Virus genome (UHGV): UHGV-1504643
Direction: 5' to 3' (one strand)
Length of the DNA stretch: 16,006 nt
Origin: a virus
Positions within the stretch are counted from its first letter, which is position 1, and the number at the start of each line of letters is the position of its first letter. Positions 1-16,006 of this stretch are shown here, piece by piece. A program made the position numbers and the translations under genes. Below the pieces are notes generated by a model, which was not told the DNA's origin, did not search any database, and worked only from the letters and a program-made list of their open reading frames with translations.

Positions 1-216
1 GATTGGCAGCTCTTCCTGTGCTAGGTATCCGATCTTGATCGTCTCTCCTACTTCCACATGACCTTCATCCGGCTGTTCAAGTCCTGCCATAATCTTTAAC
101 AGGGTAGATTTTCCACAACCATTTTGTCCATACAATATGTTTATTTTTTTGGATAAATCTAACTCGGTAAAATATTCTTTATGATAGCTTGTTACGTTTT
201 TGAGTTTTAATTTCAT
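1..216 (-). CDS. ABC-type ATPase, N-terminal 72 codons only (gene continues beyond window start); ABC-F-like (EttA/Uup/ARE-type) signature
   Basis: Minus-strand ATG at 216-214 preceded by GAGGG (complement of 221-225). Translation: [72 protein letters not shown]. Walker A is GQNGCGKST; the short spacing from Walker A to the IGYLxQ Q-loop-like motif resembles ABC-F nucleotide-binding domains as I recall them for EttA. No stop before position 1. Lower G+C than the phage core. Confidence 0.6.
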
Positions 217-7501: not shown

Positions 7502-7998
7502 TGCCGGTAATGAACACGCATCAGAATATCGCCGCCTTTCTCGACATGCTGGCCGTGTCCGAAGGGACGGCGAATCATCCACTGACGAAAAACCGGGGCT
7601 ATGACGTGATAGTCACCGGACTGGACGGAAAGCCGGAAATTTTCACCGACTACAGTGACCACCCGTTCGCGCATGGCCGACCGGCGAAGGTGTTTAACCG
7701 TCGTGGTGAAAAATCCACGGCCTCCGGTCGCTATCAGCAGCTTTACCTGTTCTGGCCGCATTACCGCAAACAGCTTGCCCTGCCGGATTTCAGTCCGTTG
7801 TCACAGGACAGACTTGCCATTCAGTTGATCCGCGAACGCGGTGCACTGGATGACATCCGGGCGGGACGCATTGAGCGCGCCATTTCACGCTGTCGCAATA
7901 TCTGGGCGTCCCTGCCGGGTGCCGGTTACGGTCAGCGTGAGCATTCACTGGAAAAACTGGTCACCGTCTGGCGTACCGCTGGCGGCGTACCGGCTTAA
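7501..7998 (+). CDS. K: Endolysin (lysozyme-like murein hydrolase), P2 gpK homologue
   Basis: 165-aa ORF; start overlaps the Y stop (TAATG); position and length match P2 K. Confidence 0.92.
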   Translation: MPVMNTHQNIAAFLDMLAVSEGTANHPLTKNRGYDVIVTGLDGKPEIFTDYSDHPFAHGRPAKVFNRRGEKSTASGRYQQLYLFWPHYRKQLALPDFSPLSQDRLAIQLIRERGALDDIRAGRIERAISRCRNIWASLPGAGYGQREHSLEKLVTVWRTAGGVPA

Positions 7999-9426: not shown

Positions 9427-9871
9427 GTTTAAGCGTTTTGAAGACCGGCTGACCGGACTGATTGAGTCGCTGTCACCGTCAGGGCGTCGGCGACTGAGTG
9501 CCGAACTGGCAAAACGTCTGCGACAGAGTCAGCAGCGTCGGGTGATGGCACAGAAAGCCCCGGACGGCACACCCTACGCGCCACGCCAGCAGCAGAGCGC
9601 CAGAAAAAAGACTGGTCGTGTTAAGCGAAAAATGTTTGCGAAACTTATTACCAGTCGTTTTTTGCATATTCGCGCCAGCCCGGAGCAGGCATCAATGGAA
9701 TTTTACGGCGGGAAGTCGCCGAAAATCGCCAGTGTGCATCAGTTCGGTCTGTCGGAAGAAAACCGGAAAGACGGTAAGAAAATTGATTATCCGGCGCGTC
9801 CTCTGCTCGGCTTTACCGGTGAGGATGTACAGATGATTGAAGAGATTATCCTGGCTCACCTCGACCGTTAG
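9419..9871 (+). CDS. S: Tail completion protein, P2 gpS homologue
   Basis: 150-aa ORF; 8-nt overlap with R; position and length match P2 S. Confidence 0.9.
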   Translation: MNEFKRFEDRLTGLIESLSPSGRRRLSAELAKRLRQSQQRRVMAQKAPDGTPYAPRQQQSARKKTGRVKRKMFAKLITSRFLHIRASPEQASMEFYGGKSPKIASVHQFGLSEENRKDGKKIDYPARPLLGFTGEDVQMIEEIILAHLDR

Positions 9872-9903
9872 TTGTGCCATTCCCGACACCTCATCGTCAC
9901 ATT

Positions 9904-9925
9904 GCCGCCGGTATGACCCGGCGGC
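9904..9925 (+). promoter_or_regulatory. Inverted repeat (8-bp stem, 6-nt loop) in the S-V intergenic region; possible regulatory element near the expected late promoter for the V operon
   Basis: GCCGCCGG (9904-9911) / CCGGCGGC (9918-9925); no U-tract follows, so not a classical intrinsic terminator. P2 has a late promoter upstream of V (established knowledge); its identity here is inference. Confidence 0.3.
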
Positions 9926-9937
9926 ATCCTTCCCGTT

Positions 9938-10573
9938 ATGAACACACTCGCAAATATTCAGGAACTCGCGCGCGCACTGCGCAACATGATCCGCACCGGC
10001 ATTATCGTCGAAACCGACCTTAACGCCGGTCGCTGCCGTGTGCAGACCGGCGGCATGTGCACCGACTGGCTTCAGTGGCTGACCCATCGCGCCGGACGTT
10101 CGCGCACATGGTGGGCACCTTCCGTGGGGGAACAGGTGCTGATTCTGGCCGTGGGCGGTGAACTCGACACGGCGTTCGTTCTGCCGGGGATTTATTCCGG
10201 CGATAACCGCGCGCCGTCTGCGTCGGCGGATGCCCTGCATATCCGTTTCCCTGACGGGGCGGTGATTGAGTATGAACCCGAAACCAGTGCACTCACGGTA
10301 AGCGGAATTAAAACGGCCAGCGTGACGGCTTCTGATTCTGTTACTGCCACGGTACCGGTGGTCACGGTGAAAGCGTCAACCCGTGTCACCCTGGACACAC
10401 CGGAAGTGGTCTGCACTAACAAACTGACTACCGGCACGCTGGAAGTGCAGAAGGGCGGGACGATGCGCGGCAACATTGAACACACCGGCGGTGAACTCTC
10501 ATCAAACGGTAAGGTACTGCATACCCACAAACACCCCGGCGACAGCGGCGGCACAACCGGGAGTCCTTTATGA
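9938..10573 (+). CDS. V: Baseplate central spike protein, P2 gpV homologue
   Basis: 211-aa ORF; position and length match P2 V. Confidence 0.92.
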   Translation: MNTLANIQELARALRNMIRTGIIVETDLNAGRCRVQTGGMCTDWLQWLTHRAGRSRTWWAPSVGEQVLILAVGGELDTAFVLPGIYSGDNRAPSASADALHIRFPDGAVIEYEPETSALTVSGIKTASVTASDSVTATVPVVTVKASTRVTLDTPEVVCTNKLTTGTLEVQKGGTMRGNIEHTGGELSSNGKVLHTHKHPGDSGGTTGSPL

Positions 10574-10917
10574 CAGCGCGTTATCTCGGAATGAATCGCA
10601 GTGATGGCCTGACGGTCACTGACCTTGAGCATATCAGCCAGAGTATCGGCGATATCCTGCGCACACCGGTCGGCTCACGGGTGATGCGTCGTGATTACGG
10701 CTCGTTGCTGGCGTCAATGATTGACCAGCCGCAGACTCCGGCGCTTGAGTTGCAGATTAAGGTCGCCTGTTACATGGCGGTACTGAAATGGGAACCCCGC
10801 GTCACCCTGTCATCCGTCACCACGGCGCGCAGTTTTGACGGGCGAATGACGGTCACGTTAACCGGTCAGCACAACGACACCGGCCAGCCACTTTCGTTAA
10901 CCATCCCTGTGAGTTGA
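10570..10917 (+). CDS. W: Baseplate wedge protein (gp25-like), P2 gpW homologue
   Basis: 115-aa ORF; ATGA overlap with the V stop. Confidence 0.92.
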   Translation: MTARYLGMNRSDGLTVTDLEHISQSIGDILRTPVGSRVMRRDYGSLLASMIDQPQTPALELQIKVACYMAVLKWEPRVTLSSVTTARSFDGRMTVTLTGQHNDTGQPLSLTIPVS

Positions 10918-10921
10918 AACC

Positions 10922-11830
10922 ATGCCGATTATCGACCTGAACCAGCTACCCGCACCGGATGTGGTCGAGGAGCTGGACTTTGAAACCATTCTTGCCGAAC
11001 GCAAGGCGACACTGATTTCCCTTTACCCGGAAGACCAGCAGGAGGCGGTCGCCCGTACCCTGACGCTGGAATCCGAGCCTCTCGTCAAACTGCTGGAGGA
11101 AAATGCTTATCGTGAGCTTATCTGGCGTCAGCGTGTGAATGAGGCCGCACGGGCGGTGATGCTGGCCTGTGCCGCCGGTAATGACCTTGATGTGATTGGT
11201 GCCAATTACAACACCACGCGCCTGATTATCACCCCGGCAGATGATTCGACCATCCCGCCGACACCGGCAGTGATGGAGTCTGACACCGATTATCGTCTGC
11301 GTATTCAGCAGGCGTTTGAGGGCTTAAGCGTTGCCGGGTCGGTGGGAGCCTATCAGTATCATGGTCGTAGTGCCGACGGGCGTGTCGCGGATATCTCTGT
11401 TACCAGTCCGTCTCCGGCCTGTGTCACTGTCTCCGTGCTGTCACGTGAAAATAACGGCGTCGCATCCGAAGACCTGCTGGCTGTGGTGCGTAACGCCCTT
11501 AATGGCGAGGACGTCAGGCCGGTGGCCGACCGCGTGACCGTGCAGTCTGCCGCCATCGTTGAATACCAGATAAACGCCACGCTTTACCTTTACCCTGGTC
11601 CCGAAAGCGAACCCATACGCGCTGCCGCCGTGAAAAAACTGGAAGCGTACATCACGGCACAGCACCGGCTGGGGCGTGACATCCGTCTGTCTGCCATTTA
11701 TGCCGCTTTGCATGTGGAAGGCGTGCAGCGTGTTGAACTGGCTTCACCACTGGCCGACATCGTGCTCAACAGTACGCAGGCGTCTTTCTGTACCGAATAC
11801 CACGTCGTGACCGGAGGCTCGGATGAGTGA
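10922..11830 (+). CDS. J: Baseplate protein J, P2 gpJ homologue
   Basis: 302-aa ORF; position and length match P2 J. Confidence 0.92.
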   Translation: MPIIDLNQLPAPDVVEELDFETILAERKATLISLYPEDQQEAVARTLTLESEPLVKLLEENAYRELIWRQRVNEAARAVMLACAAGNDLDVIGANYNTTRLIITPADDSTIPPTPAVMESDTDYRLRIQQAFEGLSVAGSVGAYQYHGRSADGRVADISVTSPSPACVTVSVLSRENNGVASEDLLAVVRNALNGEDVRPVADRVTVQSAAIVEYQINATLYLYPGPESEPIRAAAVKKLEAYITAQHRLGRDIRLSAIYAALHVEGVQRVELASPLADIVLNSTQASFCTEYHVVTGGSDE

Positions 11831-12353
11831 TTCGCGACTGCTGCCGACCGGCTCATCACCGCTTGAAGTTGCCGCCGCAAAAGCCTGTGCGGAAATTGAA
11901 AAAACGCCGGTCAGTATTCGTGAGCTGTGGAACCCGGATACCTGTCCGGCAAATCTGCTGCCGTGGCTGGCGTGGGCGTTTTCGGTCGACAGGTGGGATG
12001 AAAAGTGGCCGGAAGCGACCAAACGCGCCGTTATTCGCGATGCCTATTTCATCCACTGTCATAAAGGCACTATAGGTGCAATCCGGCGTGTGGTGGAGCC
12101 GCTGGGCTATCTCATCAACGTGACAGAGTGGTGGGAAACCAGTGACCCGCCAGGCACCTTCCGGCTTGATATTGGCGTACTGGAAAGCGGCATCACAGAG
12201 GCAATGTATCAGGAAATGGAACGGCTTATTGCTGATGCCAAACCTGCAAGCCGTCATCTTATTGGCCTGAACATTACCCGGGATATTCCCGGCTACCTGT
12301 TCGCCGGTGGTGTGGCTTACGACGGCGATGTAATTACGGTTTACCCCGGATAA
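11823..12353 (+). CDS. I: Baseplate protein I, P2 gpI homologue
   Basis: 176-aa ORF; GGAGG site upstream; 8-nt overlap with J. Confidence 0.9.
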   Translation: MSDSRLLPTGSSPLEVAAAKACAEIEKTPVSIRELWNPDTCPANLLPWLAWAFSVDRWDEKWPEATKRAVIRDAYFIHCHKGTIGAIRRVVEPLGYLINVTEWWETSDPPGTFRLDIGVLESGITEAMYQEMERLIADAKPASRHLIGLNITRDIPGYLFAGGVAYDGDVITVYPG

Positions 12354-12363
12354 GTGAGGAATA

Positions 12364-14613
12364 ATGAGCACAAAATTCAAAACCGTTATCACCACTGCCG
12401 GTGCAGCAAAGCTGGCAGCGGCAACCGCACCGGGAGGGCGGAAGGTCAACATTACCACGATGGCCGTCGGGGATGGCGGTGGTAAATTGCCTGTCCCGGA
12501 TGCCGGACAGACCGGGCTTATCCATGAAGTCTGGCGACATGCGCTGAACAAAATCAGCCAGGACAAACGAAACAGTAATTATATTATCGCAGAGCTGGTT
12601 ATTCCGCCGGAGGTGGGCGGTTTCTGGATGCGTGAACTTGGCCTGTACGATGATGCGGGAACGCTAATTGCCGTGGCGAACATGGCCGAAAGTTATAAGC
12701 CAGCCCTTGCCGAAGGCTCAGGGCGTTCGCAGACCTGCCGCATGGTCATCATCGTCAGCAGTGTGGCCTCAGTGGAGCTGACCATTGACACCACAACGGT
12801 GATGGCAACGCAGGATTACGTTGATGACAAAATTGCAGAACATGAACAGTCACGACGTCACCCTGACGCCTCGCTGACCGCAAAAGGTTTTACTCAGTTA
12901 AGCAGTGCGACCAACAGCACGTCTGAAACACTGGCTGCAACTCCGAAAGCGGTTAAGGCCGCATATGACCTTGCTAACGGGAAATATACCGCACAGGACG
13001 CTACCACCGCGCGAAAAGGCCTTGTTCAGCTCAGTAGTGCGACTAACAGCACGTCTGAAACGCTCGCCGCAACGCCGAAAGCGGTAAAGGCAGCATATGA
13101 CCTTGCTAACGGGAAATACACTGCACAGGATGCCACAACAGCGCGAAAAGGCCTTGTTCAGCTCAGTAGCGCCACCAACAGCGATTCTGAAACGCTTGCG
13201 GCAACGCCAAAGGCGGTTAAGACAGCATATGACCTTGCTAACGGGAAATACACTGCACAGGATGCCACCACGGCGCGAAAAGGTCTTGTCCAGCTCAGTA
13301 GCGCCACCAACAGTGATTCTGAAACGCAGGCTGCAACGCCAAAGGCGGTGAAGTCTGCCTATGACAATGCTGAAAAACGTCTTCAGAAAGATCAAAACGG
13401 TGCGGATATCCCTGATAAAGAACGCTTCCTGAGTAACATTAATGTTTACAGCAAAGGTGAAGTGGATAAGAAAAAGGGAATGCGAAAGTATTCGTTTGCA
13501 GCCCCTGCAAATGTCGTTGCCGGGAAGTGGTACCCCGTTATCTTTCGCCGTGCTGCCAGCCTTTCAGGAGAAATGGCATCCCGCGTTGTTATTTCCACTG
13601 GTTGTTATAACGGCGATTATGTAATGAATAACTGCGAGTTTAATGGCATGGTTATGCCCGGAGGCTGGACTGATCGTGGTTCATATGCGGCAGGTTATTT
13701 CTGGACGTATCAGACTAATGAGCGTTCAATCCATTCCATTGTTACAAGCCTGAAAGATGATGATGTATGTAGTGTTTTTTATGTTGAAGCCAGAGCTTTC
13801 CCTGTACAAATTCTTGCAGAGGAAGGGCTAACGGTTATTGTTCCGACAGAGGATTATGTCGTCGGTCAAACGACATATAAGTGGGGAGCAACTAATCCCG
13901 CTACAGAAAGCACGAACGCACAGGCTATTCTGGATTTTAAAAATGGACGTGGTTATTACTGTTCACATCCATTTATTTCCAGCCTTTCAGGAAATGCTGC
14001 AACAGCAACGAAGTTAGCGAACGCAAGAAATATTAATGGTGTCAGATTTGATGGCTCTGCCGATATAAATATTAATACACTGGTATCCAGAAACCGTGTT
14101 AATGCATTAGGTGGGAGCGTAAAGGGGACACCAGGTATTCAGATGTATGAGGCATACAACAATGGCTACCCAACAGCCTATGGTAATGTGCTTCATCTCA
14201 CTGGCGTAACCGCAGTAGGAGAGGGTGAGTTACTTATTGGCTGGAGTGGAACCAGCGGTGCTCATGCTCCGGCATATATTCGTTCCCGACGAGATACCAC
14301 AGATGCAGACTGGTCTGGATGGGCGCAACTATATACAACTGCTCATAAACCCTCAGCGGGAGATGTTGGTGCATACACCAAAACTGAGTCAGATTCACGT
14401 TATGTGAGAGACATGCGGCTGGGCGGTGCATCTACATATAAACCAGCAAATAATGGTACTACATGGACGCATCAGGCTCCGTCAGGTTGCGTATATACCG
14501 GCATTATTGTTCAGGATACCGGCTCAAACTCTGCCGATAACATTGGTGGCGTATATTACAGACCGGTGCAGAAATACATTAACGGGACATGGTATAACGT
14601 GGCGCAGGTATAA
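12364..14613 (+). CDS. H: Tail fibre protein, P2 gpH homologue: conserved N-terminal baseplate-attachment domain, tandem fibre repeats, and a divergent lower-GC C-terminal receptor-binding region
   Basis: 749-aa ORF; N-terminus MSTKFKTVITTAGAAKLAAATAPG... is P2 H-like as I recall; contains about 3.7 tandem 44-aa repeats and the widespread fibre motif NAATATKLANARNINGVRFDGSADININ in the C-terminal half. Confidence 0.93.
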   Translation: MSTKFKTVITTAGAAKLAAATAPGGRKVNITTMAVGDGGGKLPVPDAGQTGLIHEVWRHALNKISQDKRNSNYIIAELVIPPEVGGFWMRELGLYDDAGTLIAVANMAESYKPALAEGSGRSQTCRMVIIVSSVASVELTIDTTTVMATQDYVDDKIAEHEQSRRHPDASLTAKGFTQLSSATNSTSETLAATPKAVKAAYDLANGKYTAQDATTARKGLVQLSSATNSTSETLAATPKAVKAAYDLANGKYTAQDATTARKGLVQLSSATNSDSETLAATPKAVKTAYDLANGKYTAQDATTARKGLVQLSSATNSDSETQAATPKAVKSAYDNAEKRLQKDQNGADIPDKERFLSNINVYSKGEVDKKKGMRKYSFAAPANVVAGKWYPVIFRRAASLSGEMASRVVISTGCYNGDYVMNNCEFNGMVMPGGWTDRGSYAAGYFWTYQTNERSIHSIVTSLKDDDVCSVFYVEARAFPVQILAEEGLTVIVPTEDYVVGQTTYKWGATNPATESTNAQAILDFKNGRGYYCSHPFISSLSGNAATATKLANARNINGVRFDGSADININTLVSRNRVNALGGSVKGTPGIQMYEAYNNGYPTAYGNVLHLTGVTAVGEGELLIGWSGTSGAHAPAYIRSRRDTTDADWSGWAQLYTTAHKPSAGDVGAYTKTESDSRYVRDMRLGGASTYKPANNGTTWTHQAPSGCVYTGIIVQDTGSNSADNIGGVYYRPVQKYINGTWYNVAQV
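12883..13365 (+). repeat. Tandem direct repeat, 132-bp unit x about 3.7 copies, in frame within H (phage tail-fibre repeat)
   Basis: Near-identical units starting at 12883, 13015, 13147 and 13279, each encoding KG(F/L)(T/V)QLSSATNS(T/D)SET(L/Q)AATPKAVK(A/T/S)AYDLANGKYTAQDATTAR; the fourth copy diverges after AYD. Confidence 0.9.
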
Positions 14614-14616
14614 TTT

Positions 14617-15144
14617 ATGCAGCATTTAAAAAATATTACGGCGGGTAATCCAAAAACGGTTGAACAATATCAATTGACAAAGGACTTTGATGTTGTCTGG
14701 TTTTTTTCAGAAGATGGTAAGAACTGGTACGAAGAACAAAAGTATTTTGCTGATGACACGATAAAAATAGCGTACGACAAAGATAATATCATCCACTATG
14801 TGGAAAAGGATGTGACAGCTATCAGACCGGATGGATTAAGTGTTGTTGAAGTGGCGGATATTACTGCTAACCGACGGGCGGACATTTCAGGGAACTGGAT
14901 GTTTAAGGACGGCAAAGTGATTAAACGCATTTATACGGCAGAGGAATTACAGCAGCAGGCAGAAATTCGGAAAGCCAGACTTCTTGCAGATGCTGAATCC
15001 GTGATTTTGCCGCTGGAGCGCGCGGTCAGACTGAACATGGCAACAGATGAGGAGCGTAGCCGACTGGAATCATGGGAACGCTACAGCGTTCTGGTCAGTC
15101 GTGTGGATCCTGCAAATCCTGAATGGCCGGAAATGCCGCAATAA
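14617..15144 (+). CDS. G: Tail fibre assembly protein (fibre chaperone), P2 gpG homologue
   Basis: 175-aa ORF starting 3 nt after the H stop; position and length match P2 G; lower G+C, like the H C-terminal half. Confidence 0.9.
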
Positions 15145-15167
15145 GTTGTATTAGCTTACATATCTAT

Positions 15168-15207
15168 GGCACAGAGTAAAGCCTAATCTGACAGTCCGCT
15201 CTGTGCC
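15168..15207 (+). repeat. Inverted repeat / stem-loop (9-bp stem, 22-nt loop) 24 nt downstream of G
   Basis: GGCACAGAG (15168-15176) and CTCTGTGCC (15199-15207) are exact reverse complements; no U-tract follows. Confidence 0.5.
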
Positions 15208-15501
15208 AGGAGCAGACATTGCCAACGTTATGACCCTCGATTACATCAAAGAGCCCTATAGCCGAAACCTGCACCATAGCCATCTCTGTAGAATTCGTCC
15301 TAGGGGCTTTTAACAGACCTAGTTGTATGGATCGGAAGGAAATATTAAAGCTCAAGGCGTCAGTCCAGTGCTGTCCTGTTTGCTTACCACACGAAAGAGT
15401 GCTGCTTGTACCTGCTAACTAATGGATGCGGAGTGAGGGGGGCGGGTAGAACCAAAAGCACTTACTACGTGTGGCGCTCTCCTGGAAGAGGAGACGTCGA
15501 A

Positions 15502-15588
15502 GTGATAACGCTAACAACAGTCTTACTGGTGATGCAAATAATGCTAGCTGGTCTGGTTGCCATCAAGCAACTGACCGGACGCCCGTAA
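15502..15588 (+). CDS. Hypothetical 28-codon hydrophobic peptide (candidate small membrane protein or type I toxin-like peptide)
   Basis: GTG start at 15502 with AGAGGAG (15487-15493) 8 nt upstream; encodes (M)ITLTTVLLVMQIMLAGLVAIKQLTGRP, one predicted transmembrane helix plus a short basic tail; stop TAA at 15586-15588, about 22 nt before an intrinsic terminator. No homology evidence available. Confidence 0.3.
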   Translation: MITLTTVLLVMQIMLAGLVAIKQLTGRP

Positions 15589-15610
15589 GGGATGGAGGAA
15601 CTTGATTAAA

Positions 15611-15639
15611 GGCAGGGGGGTACCTCCCCTGCCTTTTTT
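15611..15639 (+). terminator. Rho-independent terminator (plus strand)
   Basis: GGCAGGGG (15611-15618) / CCCCTGCC (15626-15633) stem with a 7-nt loop, followed by TTTTTT (15634-15639). Confidence 0.65.
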
Positions 15640-15702
15640 CGTTTCTGCGCAAGTTAGCTCTGTTATTATAATCTTTACTCACACTGTAAGGACATAGTTC
15701 AA

Positions 15703-16006
15703 ATGACTGAATGGCTTAATGCACATTTTGGTGCAGACGCAGCTACCTATCTTAGCTTATTAGTCGGCGTACTGGCACTGTTTGGTATTGGGGGCGGTGT
15801 TACATATAGAATCAGACAGCAAAACAACATAAAACAGAAGGCAAAGAAAACCGAGGGTGATGTGAACCAGGCCGGGCGGGATATTAATCAGACCACCAAC
15901 GTTTACCACACATCCAATGAATCTACTGAGGACCCTGTAAAAAAAAAGCAAGATGAACAAGATCTGAAAATAATCGACCAGATCCTTGAATTGCTGCCTT
16001 ATGAAG
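15703..16006 (+). CDS. Hypothetical membrane-anchored protein, N-terminal 101 codons only (continues beyond window end); cargo gene at the P2 G/FI (Z/fun) position
   Basis: ATG at 15703 with AAGGA about 9 nt upstream; open to the window end, which is why it is absent from the ORF track. Translation: MTEWLNAHFGADAATYLSLLVGVLALFGIGGGVTYRIRQQNNIKQKAKKTEGDVNQAGRDINQTTNVYHTSNESTEDPVKKKQDEQDLKIIDQILELLPYE... One N-terminal transmembrane helix followed by a polar, charged region. Not recognisable as P2 FI or any P2 late protein. Confidence 0.6.
   Translation, partial: MTEWLNAHFGADAATYLSLLVGVLALFGIGGGVTYRIRQQNNIKQKAKKTEGDVNQAGRDINQTTNVYHTSNESTEDPVKKKQDEQDLKIIDQILELLPYE

What the first reader, a model, noticed from the sequence alone, without database searches (positions are those of the whole stretch)
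15703..16006. Unannotated partial gene for a membrane-anchored protein at the G/FI hotspot (missed by the ORF track)
An ORF starts at 15703 with a ribosome-binding site and stays open to the window end. It encodes an N-terminal transmembrane helix followed by a highly polar, Lys/Gln/Asp-rich region. It is not a P2 tail sheath (FI) N-terminus, so it is accessory cargo inserted between G and the tail-sheath operon. Single-pass membrane-anchored proteins are common effectors or sensors in anti-phage systems, so this could be the first gene of a cargo system, but only about 100 residues are visible.
Basis: partly seen in the sequence, partly recalled or inferred. Interest (0 to 1): 0.6.

Follow-up and report, generated by a model that had tools for sequence, protein, structure and literature searches.

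The report
Membrane-anchored orphan gene in P2 hotspot
The open reading frame at the right end of the window is a real gene: the first 101 of 227 codons of a rare, uncharacterised membrane-anchored protein that travels as its own small cassette in a known anti-phage hotspot of P2-like prophages, and it is probably, though not provably, a phage-defence gene.

Summary
An ATG at 15703 opens a frame that runs to the window end. It encodes a conserved N-terminus, one Gly-rich transmembrane helix and a polar linker. Near-identical loci (99.8%) show a 227-aa protein (RefSeq WP_000141343.1, 'hypothetical'), one residue different in the window (H86Q).

The cargo between G and the tail sheath is 3.4 kb, in two modules bounded by repeats:
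- Module A: a 480-nt leader plus this gene.
- Module B: the validated single-gene defence DS-29, plus an HNH-DUF6650 gene.

Module A occurs without B in 18 of 33 E. coli genomes. Relatives are single-gene integron cassettes or sit in other prophages, plasmids, an ICE and defence islands.

The family is tiny and matches no Pfam, NCBIfam, PADLOC or PHROG model. Substitution patterns show purifying selection (dN/dS 0.12-0.34). The C-terminal domain models confidently as a four-helix bundle with no specific solved relative. Distant relatives carry it behind multi-TM segments or a TIR domain.

DefensePredictor lists the protein as a predicted defence gene, and it was not among the units cloned. My best reading is a stand-alone, membrane-acting abortive-infection protein (0.45). 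The main rival is a partner of neighbouring HEPN RNases, which recur beside it. It is a new candidate family in a known kind of locus, of moderate interest.

The parts
14617..15144 (+). P2 G (tail fibre assembly protein). It is the conserved left flank of the hotspot.
   Evidence: PF02413 Caudo_TAP on the identical protein in 8 loci. Annotated as tail fiber assembly protein in L001.
15185..15221 (+). Left arm of the 37-nt inverted repeat, core GCTCTGTGCCAGGAGCAGACATTG at 15198-15221. It marks the left edge of the variable cargo and every module boundary.
   Evidence: Arms at L008 6569-6605 and 9970-10006 are 86% complementary, with a third copy at 7944-7967 just after the 227-aa gene. Copies lie at each module edge in L001-L003, L018 and L019. 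P2 relatives with other cargo diverge at window 15213-15221. The equivalent sequence is annotated 'left inverted repeat' in P2-EC46.
15222..15702 (+). Leader of module A. It is conserved wherever the gene occurs in E. coli. It contains a 60-aa ORF (15406-15588), a strong terminator and an AT-rich stretch with TATAAT at 15667-15672.
   Evidence: 98.7-99.6% identical in CP4-like island copies. No consensus promoter passed the scan. No Rfam family matched.
15608..15636 (+). Intrinsic terminator (13-bp stem, 8 G-C pairs, T tract). It probably insulates the gene from read-through of the late H-G transcript.
   Evidence: RNA fold of 15440-15645 gives z = -4.7. The insulation role is inferred.
15703..16006 (+). 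Codons 1-101 of the 227-aa membrane-anchored protein (TM-4HB family), cut by the window end.
15739..15807 (+). Single Gly-rich transmembrane helix (aa 13-35). The predicted topology is N-terminus out, C-terminal domain in the cytoplasm.
   Evidence: Hydropathy and flanking charge across ten homologues. Helix 12-29 in the model. The topology is inferred from the positive-inside rule.
15808..15933 (+). Disordered polar linker (aa 36-77) carrying the QAGRDIN motif, which is repeated up to three times in homologues.
   Evidence: pLDDT below 50 for aa 30-72. Repeat copies visible in P0008.
15934..16006 (+). Start of the conserved C-terminal four-helix-bundle domain (aa 78-101 of about 78-220), including the HDLKII..IL.LLPYE motif. 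Codon 86 (15958-15960) is Q here and H in most relatives.
   Evidence: pLDDT 97-99 for aa 80-220. H86 is nearly invariant and D87 invariant. The window reads DEQDLK against DEHDLK in L008.
15939..15947 (+). A9 homopolymer inside the ORF. It is a recurrent frameshift site in other copies.
   Evidence: A8 in L040 and in the truncated 87-aa cluster P0027 (20 member sequences, 9 contigs). G3 instead of G4 at the 15791-15794 run in L039.

Best explanation
The ORF is the 5' part of a real 227-codon lysogenic-conversion gene. It sits on its own repeat-bounded cassette in the P2 G/FI defence hotspot.

The protein has three parts:
- a short conserved extracytoplasmic N-terminus and one Gly-rich TM helix;
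- a disordered linker of about 45 residues;
- a cytoplasmic four-helix-bundle domain of a previously undescribed family.

The most likely role is a stand-alone anti-phage protein of the abortive-infection type. The cytoplasmic bundle would sense an infection cue. The membrane module would then act as the effector by self-association and loss of membrane integrity, as a TIR NADase would in the TIR-fused relative.

Shown: gene reality, architecture, independent mobility, defence-rich contexts and a machine-learning defence call.

Inferred: topology, the split into sensor and effector, membrane damage, and any anti-phage phenotype.
For: 1. Real, constrained gene.
2. Independent unit.
   - The same 24-37-nt repeat lies on both sides of the gene.
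   - Module A is present without module B in 18 of 33 E. coli genomes, and B is never present without A.
   - In Vibrio the gene lies between two attC-type repeats 874 nt apart.
   - In Marinobacterium it is the first ORF beside an integron integrase.
3. Always on mobile or defence-rich DNA.
   - P2 hotspot in the window, L001, L008 and L038-L040.
   - CP4-like islands, stacked with DS-29 and a DS-38-like gene.
   - After the tail-fibre genes of a lambdoid prophage.
   - At prophage edges beside repressor modules.
   - Between KAP NTPase and Abi_2 genes.
   - On an ICE and on conjugative plasmids.
   - The same P2 site holds GAPS4 in prophages with the identical G gene.
4. Modular architecture typical of defence proteins.
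   - The C-domain follows one to three TM helices in most relatives.
   - In P0058 it follows a TIR domain: PF13676 at 32.7 bits against a gathering score of 28, and hhalign 95% probability for the C-domain.
   - The N-module occurs alone and also fused to an LPO_1073 domain.
5. DefensePredictor gives WP_000141343.1 a mean log-odds of 5.34 against a cut-off of 4, labelled 'predicted novel defense gene' (PMC13092281 supplement).
6. Recurrent inactivating homopolymer frameshifts fit a costly or toxic gene.
Against: - There is no experimental phenotype. The protein is absent from the table of cloned units.
- The DefensePredictor score uses neighbouring genes, so it may partly reflect DS-29 next door.
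- A single moderately hydrophobic TM helix is a weak pore former on its own.
- In Yersinia and Salmonella plasmids the homologue sits 10-15 nt upstream of a HEPN gene, which argues for a two-gene unit there.
- The TIR fusion rests on one representative sequence.
- The window allele has H86Q at a nearly invariant position, and the rest of the gene cannot be seen.
Confidence: 0.45

Rival explanations
1. The protein is a partner or accessory of a neighbouring HEPN RNase. It would be a membrane tether, regulator or second effector, and the functional unit would be TM-4HB plus HEPN. This resembles the way the membrane protein Csx28 works with Cas13b (comparison from my own knowledge).
For: HEPN-type genes of at least five unrelated families lie next to homologues:
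- DS-29 ('HEPN-like integron domain') after module A in 15 E. coli genomes.
- A DS-38-like HEPN-zinc-finger gene, convergent, in L002 and L018.
- A RiboL-PSP-HEPN gene on the same strand with a 10-nt gap, annotated or scored as HEPN in L029 and L030 (30.4 bits against a gathering score of 28.4 in L030); its homologues hold the same position in L031 and L032.
- A 196-aa protein with an RDEIAH motif, 15 nt downstream, in a Salmonella plasmid.
- Abi_2, convergent, in L022 and L023.
Against: - DS-29 and DS-38 each protect when cloned alone.
- A recombination repeat and a 355-nt gap separate the gene from DS-29.
- The gene has no recognisable HEPN neighbour in the Vibrio and Marinobacterium integrons, the lambdoid prophage, the ICE, plasmid L026, SE11 or Serratia.
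- HEPN genes are common in defence islands, so some adjacency is expected. I did not compute a background rate.
- The partners are not homologous to each other, so a specific protein-protein interface is unlikely to be conserved.
Confidence: 0.22
2. The protein is a superinfection-exclusion protein. As an inner-membrane protein made by the lysogen, it would block genome entry of incoming phages rather than kill the infected cell.
For: - It is a membrane-anchored prophage moron at positions typical for such genes: after the tail-fibre genes and beside repressor modules.
- The P2 gene at this site, fun(Z), is a known exclusion or defence gene (PMC9519451).
- The extracytoplasmic N-terminus is strongly conserved: W4, N6, G10, D12, A14 and Y16 are invariant.
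Against: - The large conserved domain is predicted to be cytoplasmic.
- A relative carries that domain on a TIR domain with no membrane anchor. This fits intracellular sensing better than a block at the envelope.
- The family also sits in integron cassettes, plasmids and an ICE, not only in prophages.
- No homologue was found in 50,697 deposited phage genomes.
Confidence: 0.13
3. The gene has no defence role. It could be an addiction or toxin-like membrane protein, another fitness factor of mobile elements, or a decaying passenger gene.
For: - No phenotype is known.
- Frameshifted copies are frequent.
- The leader carries a possible small hydrophobic peptide ORF with a sequestered ribosome-binding site, which resembles a type I toxin.
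- The window allele has H86Q.
Against: - Purifying selection across the family.
- Intact copies at 98-100% identity in E. coli and Serratia.
- Consistent placement among defence genes, and the machine-learning defence call.
Confidence: 0.12

Closest known systems
Cargo of P2 defence hotspot #2 (the Z/fun locus between G and FI; Vassallo et al. 2022, PMC9519451; inverted repeats annotated in P2-EC46, AJ512680)
   Same: Same position, directly after G. Same conserved flank and the same repeat at the boundary. The content varies among prophages that share an identical G gene.
   Different: The gene has no sequence relation to fun(Z) or to any validated occupant of the site. Here the cargo is a stack of two repeat-bounded modules. 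The same stack also occurs in CP4-like integrative islands.
DS-29 (working id HEP3), a single-gene HEPN-like defence system of DefensePredictor (PMC13092281)
   Same: It is the immediate downstream neighbour in every P2 copy examined. The L008 protein is 98% identical to the tested WP_061089765.1.
   Different: It is a different protein with no similarity to the 227-aa protein. It was cloned and shown to be active without the 227-aa gene, and a repeat separates the two. It lies outside the window.
Defence proteins that carry either a TM or a TIR effector on a common sensor domain (Pycsar and CBASS effectors, Thoeris ThsA variants); comparison from my own knowledge
   Same: One conserved domain sits behind alternative N-terminal modules: one to three TM helices, or TIR.
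   Different: No cyclase or other signal-producing gene is linked to it. The conserved domain is a four-helix bundle, not a SAVED, SLOG, CARF or cNMP-binding domain. Its function as a sensor is not shown.
Type VI Thoeris (TIR plus the DUF6650 effector ThsG; bioRxiv 10.64898/2025.12.03.692087)
   Same: A DUF6650 protein, here with an N-terminal HNH domain, lies in the same cargo in related loci.
   Different: No TIR gene is present in the cargo. Neither the 227-aa nor the 261-aa protein matches TIR. The DUF6650 gene is on the opposite strand, in the other module.
Cas13b accessory membrane protein Csx28 (my own knowledge; a Csx28-like hit is listed for the unrelated system DS-13)
   Same: A small membrane protein encoded beside a HEPN RNase.
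   Different: No sequence or fold similarity was detected. The HEPN neighbours are diverse and are active alone.

Membership tests
P2 G/FI (Z/fun) hotspot cargo | Lies between the tail-fibre assembly gene G and the tail-sheath gene FI. | tested here: met
   G ends at 15144 and the gene starts at 15703. FI is outside the window, but it follows in L001, L008 and L040, which are 99.4-99.8% identical over the shared part.
P2 G/FI (Z/fun) hotspot cargo | Conserved flanks with variable content among close relatives, bounded by the inverted repeats. | tested here: met
   Seven prophages share the G sequence up to window 15213-15221 and then diverge. The 37-nt inverted repeat flanks the cargo. Only the left arm (15185-15221) is inside the window.
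Phage tail sheath or other morphogenetic protein | Sequence match to sheath, tube or other structural families. | tested here: not met
   No Pfam or PHROG family at E below 0.1. The sheath gene is a separate ORF about 2.9 kb downstream.
Any catalogued defence protein family (PADLOC 2.0, NCBIfam, Pfam) | Profile match above threshold. | tested here: not met
   No PADLOC, Pfam or meaningful NCBIfam hit for the 227-aa protein. No solved-structure relative by sequence.
DS-29 system | Homology to, or requirement for, the 261-aa HEPN-like protein. | tested here: not met
   The two proteins are different. DS-29 was cloned alone and was active. Module A occurs without it in 18 genomes.
Type VI Thoeris | A TIR signal producer encoded with a DUF6650 effector. 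| tested here: not met
   No TIR domain in the 227-aa or 261-aa proteins. The DUF6650 protein carries an HNH domain and sits in the other module.
Abortive-infection membrane effectors (functional class) | Infection-triggered loss of membrane integrity, and population-level protection. | not testable with these tools
   Only the architecture is available: a TM helix and a cytoplasmic domain.
Superinfection-exclusion proteins (functional class) | Block of phage DNA entry by a prophage-encoded envelope protein. | not testable with these tools
   Position and membrane anchoring fit. The predicted cytoplasmic domain and the TIR-fused relative argue against it.
Integron gene cassette (for the Vibrio and Marinobacterium homologues) | A single ORF flanked by attC-type repeats, in an array next to an integron integrase. 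| tested here: met
   Six copies of a 157-nt repeat. The homologue lies between copies at L012 5814 and 6688. In L037 it is the first ORF beside an IntI-like gene, which I identified by its motifs.

The most novel reading that the evidence does not exclude
The TM-4HB protein founds a new family of compact anti-phage proteins. A previously undescribed cytoplasmic four-helix-bundle sensor would be coupled to interchangeable effectors: a conserved single-TM module, multi-TM segments or TIR. The family would spread as one-gene cassettes through P2 hotspots, CP4-like islands, integrons and plasmids. It might also cooperate with neighbouring HEPN RNases. The repeats that bound its cassette could be sites of a recombinase-driven cassette-exchange system shared by P2 phages and integrative islands.
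Probability: 0.3. Interest if true: 0.65.

Novelty: new variant of a known kind. Interest (0 to 1): 0.45.

Why it matters
P2 hotspots supply a large share of E. coli's anti-phage repertoire, and most of their genes are still 'hypothetical'. This gene is one of the smallest candidates. It belongs to no described family, and its domain models with very high confidence. It has a clear modular logic and is ready for a simple plaque-assay test.

If it defends, it adds a new sensor fold and a new membrane effector module. Its repeat-bounded cassette would also help explain how defence genes move between phages, islands and plasmids. If it does not defend, the recurrent HEPN neighbourhood points to an accessory role that current single-gene screens would miss.

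Tried and rejected
- Morphogenetic or tail protein: no PHROG or Pfam match.
- Known defence family: no PADLOC, NCBIfam or Pfam hit.
- RNA element in the leader or elsewhere: no Rfam family at gathering score in the whole window, and only chance-level hits at 15100-16006.
- Sigma-70 promoter upstream of the gene: the scan found none. Only a TATAAT with a poor -35 is visible by eye.
- Fold-based function:
  - The second (38 sequences) was excellent for the C-domain.
  - The afdb50 library was unavailable.
- Deposited phage genomes: no homologue.
- Homology between the Yersinia HEPN partner and DS-29: none by BLASTP.
- GC shift at the cargo boundary: none evident.
- The search for related loci with the wide alignment failed for lack of a conserved stretch. 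The narrower alignment found only 4 loci in 185,579 species genomes.
- Three-gene operon reading (227-aa + DS-29 + HNH-DUF6650): rejected because of the internal repeat, the opposite strand of the HNH gene, and A-only genomes.

Full report
**1. Observation**

The window is the late region of a P2-like prophage. It carries portal Q and terminase P on the minus strand, then capsid, lysis, baseplate and fibre genes up to H (12364-14613) and G (14617-15144) (Pfam labels for the identical genes).

After G comes 558 nt without a convincing gene. An ATG at 15703 then opens a frame that is still open at 16006. The ORF list omits it only because ORFs that run off the source are not listed.

The 101 visible residues are MTEWLNAHFGADAATY, then a Gly-rich hydrophobic stretch (aa 13-35), then a K/Q/N/D/T-rich segment. 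The last residues are the start of a conserved motif, DLKIIDQILELLPYE. AAGGA lies 8 nt upstream of the ATG.

**2. The full gene**

Megablast of 15140-16006 against 5,426 complete E. coli genomes found 31 records covering at least 80% of the query. A look-up of the window's G protein found a P2 prophage, L008, that is 99.76% identical to window 9673-16004.

In L008 and L001 the frame runs to 227 codons. RefSeq annotates the product as hypothetical protein WP_000141343.1.

The window allele differs at one visible residue: Q86 instead of H86. That position is H in at least 90% of close homologues.

The gene is real and constrained:
- Fourteen homologues at 36-65% identity keep the start, the length and 40 invariant columns.
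- dN/dS is 0.12-0.34 for unsaturated pairs.

**3. Surroundings and cassette structure**

In the P2 copies, the cargo between G and the sheath gene is about 3.4 kb. It holds three genes:
- the 227-aa gene;
- a 261-aa gene;
- a 250-aa HNH-DUF6650 gene on the other strand.

A 37-nt inverted repeat flanks the whole cargo. Its left arm is window 15185-15221. A third copy lies just after the 227-aa gene. The repeat core GCTYTGTGCCAGGAGCRGAC recurs at every module edge in P2 prophages and in CP4-like integrative islands. The matching sequence was annotated as the 'left inverted repeat' of the Z region in P2-EC46.

Prophages with an identical G diverge from the window at 15213-15221. They carry other cargo instead: GAPS4, a 125-aa gene, or a 476-aa gene with a small recombinase.

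Across E. coli genomes:
- 15 carry module A plus module B.
- 17 carry module A only, ending exactly at the internal repeat.
- One plasmid has a truncated copy.
- None has B alone.

In the islands, A is followed by B, then by a DS-38-like gene, or by that gene directly. IMG/VR holds three more P2 proviruses with A plus B at this site.

A strong terminator at 15608-15636 lies between G and the gene. The gene is therefore probably expressed from its own weak, AT-rich promoter in the lysogen. That point is inferred, because no consensus promoter was found.

**4. What is published**

The G/FI site is the second P2 defence hotspot of Vassallo et al. (PMC9519451).

In the DefensePredictor study (PMC13092281):
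- The 261-aa neighbour, WP_061089765.1, was cloned alone from contig NZ_RRWI01000012.1 and protected E. coli. It was named DS-29. The L008 protein is 98% identical to it.
- On the same contig, WP_000141343.1 scores a mean log-odds of 5.34 against a cut-off of 4, and is labelled 'predicted novel defense gene'.
- It does not appear in the table of cloned units.
- The HNH-DUF6650 gene scores 5.48 and was also not cloned.

DUF6650 is the effector domain of type VI Thoeris. No TIR gene is present in this cargo.

**5. The protein**

No Pfam, NCBIfam, PADLOC or PHROG model matches. The family is very small:
- 16 clusters among 5.8 billion proteins.
- 60 representatives at E up to 0.001 among 1.84 billion.
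- 4 loci in one genome each of 185,579 species.
- 8 plasmids.
- None in 50,697 phage records.

The profile search splits the protein into two modules.

The N-module (aa 1-61: conserved N-terminus, TM helix, QAGRDIN motif) occurs:
- alone, in proteins of 60-70 aa;
- fused to an LPO_1073/Vpar_1526 domain.

The C-domain (aa about 65-224) occurs behind:
- one to three unrelated TM helices;
- TM helices followed by a stretch that weakly matches PADLOC 'CARF3--CARF' models (P0035; I read this stretch by eye as helix-turn-helix-like);
- in P0058, a TIR domain. PF13676 scores above its gathering threshold, and the C-domain match is 95% probable by hhalign.

With a 38-sequence alignment, AlphaFold2 models residues 80-220 at pLDDT 97-99. 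The model is an up-down four-helix bundle with a conserved Pro-rich loop (P..DWK). Residues 30-72 are disordered.

The charge distribution is no K/R before the helix and five to seven after it in the enterobacterial members. This predicts a cytoplasmic C-domain (positive-inside rule).

**6. Contexts of relatives**

- A single-gene cassette between attC-type repeats in a Vibrio alginolyticus chromosomal integron.
- The first ORF beside an integron integrase in a Marinobacterium genome, two cassettes from a TIR gene.
- After the tail-fibre genes of a lambdoid prophage.
- At a prophage edge beside an ImmA/IrrE-HTH gene.
- A distant relative beside a cI-like repressor.
- Between KAP NTPase and Abi_2 genes.
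- On an ICE and on conjugative plasmids of Yersinia, Salmonella and Citrobacter.
- A 98% identical copy in Serratia, beside DUF2971 and helicase genes.

Integron cassettes are a reported source of phage-defence genes (bioRxiv 10.1101/2024.07.02.601719).

**7. Interpretation**

Three facts argue that the gene works on its own and benefits the host of a mobile element:
- It is independently mobile.
- It is always placed among defence or lysogenic-conversion genes.
- It shows a swap of effector-like N-terminal modules on one conserved domain.

The most economical mechanism is an abortive-infection protein. Its cytoplasmic bundle would sense an infection cue, and its membrane module would be the effector. 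I give this 0.45. I give about 0.6 to the broader statement that the gene is anti-phage in some way.

The chief rival comes from an unexpected regularity. HEPN-type genes of five unrelated families sit next to homologues. In Yersinia and Salmonella plasmids they are on the same strand, only 10-15 nt downstream.

That suggests a two-gene unit in some lineages. Three points weigh against it for this locus:
- DS-29 and DS-38 are active alone.
- A repeat and a gap separate the gene from DS-29 in E. coli.
- Many contexts have no HEPN neighbour.

Superinfection exclusion and a non-defence role remain possible.

**8. Novelty and score**

The locus type is known and the neighbour is already validated. 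The protein has been flagged by a published predictor. What is new is the characterisation of an undescribed family:
- a two-module architecture;
- a confident new helical domain;
- a TIR-fused relative;
- a cassette bounded by the hotspot repeats;
- the recurrent HEPN neighbourhood.

None of this has been tested at the bench. I rate it a new variant of a known kind, with interest 0.45.

Noticed in passing
window 15185-15221; L008 6569-6605, 7944-7967, 9970-10006; L018 4977, 6340, 8366, 8416, 11915: A 24-37-nt repeat (core GCTYTGTGCCAGGAGCRGAC) bounds every cargo module. It occurs both in P2 hotspot #2 and in CP4-like integrative islands, where modules stack as A, B (DS-29 plus HNH-DUF6650) and C (DS-38-like). 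Genes for 200-aa tyrosine recombinases sit in some arrays (L002 8940-9542, L007 8703-9305). This looks like a site-specific cassette-exchange system shared by phages and islands.
   Followed up: partly
window 15406-15588 (+), internal GTG at 15503: The leader of module A holds a 60-aa TTG ORF. An internal GTG preceded by GAGGAG would give a 28-aa hydrophobic peptide (VITLTTVLLVMQIMLAGLVAIKQLTGRP). The ribosome-binding site lies inside a CTCCT/AGGAG hairpin, and a strong terminator follows. This resembles a type I toxin. It has no Pfam match and is unannotated in RefSeq.
   Followed up: partly
window 15939-15947 (A9) and 15791-15794 (G4): Homopolymers inside the ORF are frameshift sites in other copies. 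L040 and the 87-aa cluster P0027 (Morganella and others; 20 sequences, 9 contigs) have A8, and L039 has G3. The Serratia montpellierensis copy is also split. These could be real on/off switching, decay or sequencing error.
   Followed up: partly
window 15958-15960: The window allele has Gln at residue 86. Close homologues have a nearly invariant His, next to the invariant Asp87.
   Followed up: no
window 1-211 (-): An ORF starting at about 211 on the minus strand runs off the left edge ([16 protein letters not shown]...[11 protein letters not shown]...). It is the N-terminus of an AAA_23/ABC-type ATPase, probably cargo of P2 hotspot #1 next to the portal gene Q (hotspot described in PMC9519451).
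   Followed up: partly
window 9871-9938 (between S and V); L004-L011 positions 1-1240: Prophages with the same G gene carry extra genes between S and V: a 261-aa gene, a 450-aa protein with weak Guanylate_cyc and AGS_C Pfam matches, or a Mu-type transposase. In the window S and V are adjacent, so this third variable site is empty here.
   Followed up: no
L008 9072-9824 (-) / L001 11549-12301 (-): The third cargo gene fuses an N-terminal HNH nuclease (PADLOC PDC-M68A at 3.6e-24, and CBASS HNH effector models) to DUF6650, the effector domain of type VI Thoeris. No TIR gene is nearby. It scores 5.48 in DefensePredictor and was not cloned.
   Followed up: partly
L039 3595-4922: One IMG/VR P2 provirus has an insertion of about 1.3 kb at the position of the leader terminator (window about 15625-15632), and further insertions downstream.
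   Followed up: no
L012 4562-5290, L019 7219-7947, L034 793-1572, L036 1216-2031: DUF2971 proteins lie within a few kb of the homologue in L012, L019 and L034 (Pfam or RefSeq label). The L036 (Citrobacter) protein I read as DUF2971-like by motif only, so it is untested.
   Followed up: no
L034, L035: Serratia proteamaculans and S. montpellierensis carry copies 98% identical to the E. coli protein. This implies recent transfer between genera.
   Followed up: no
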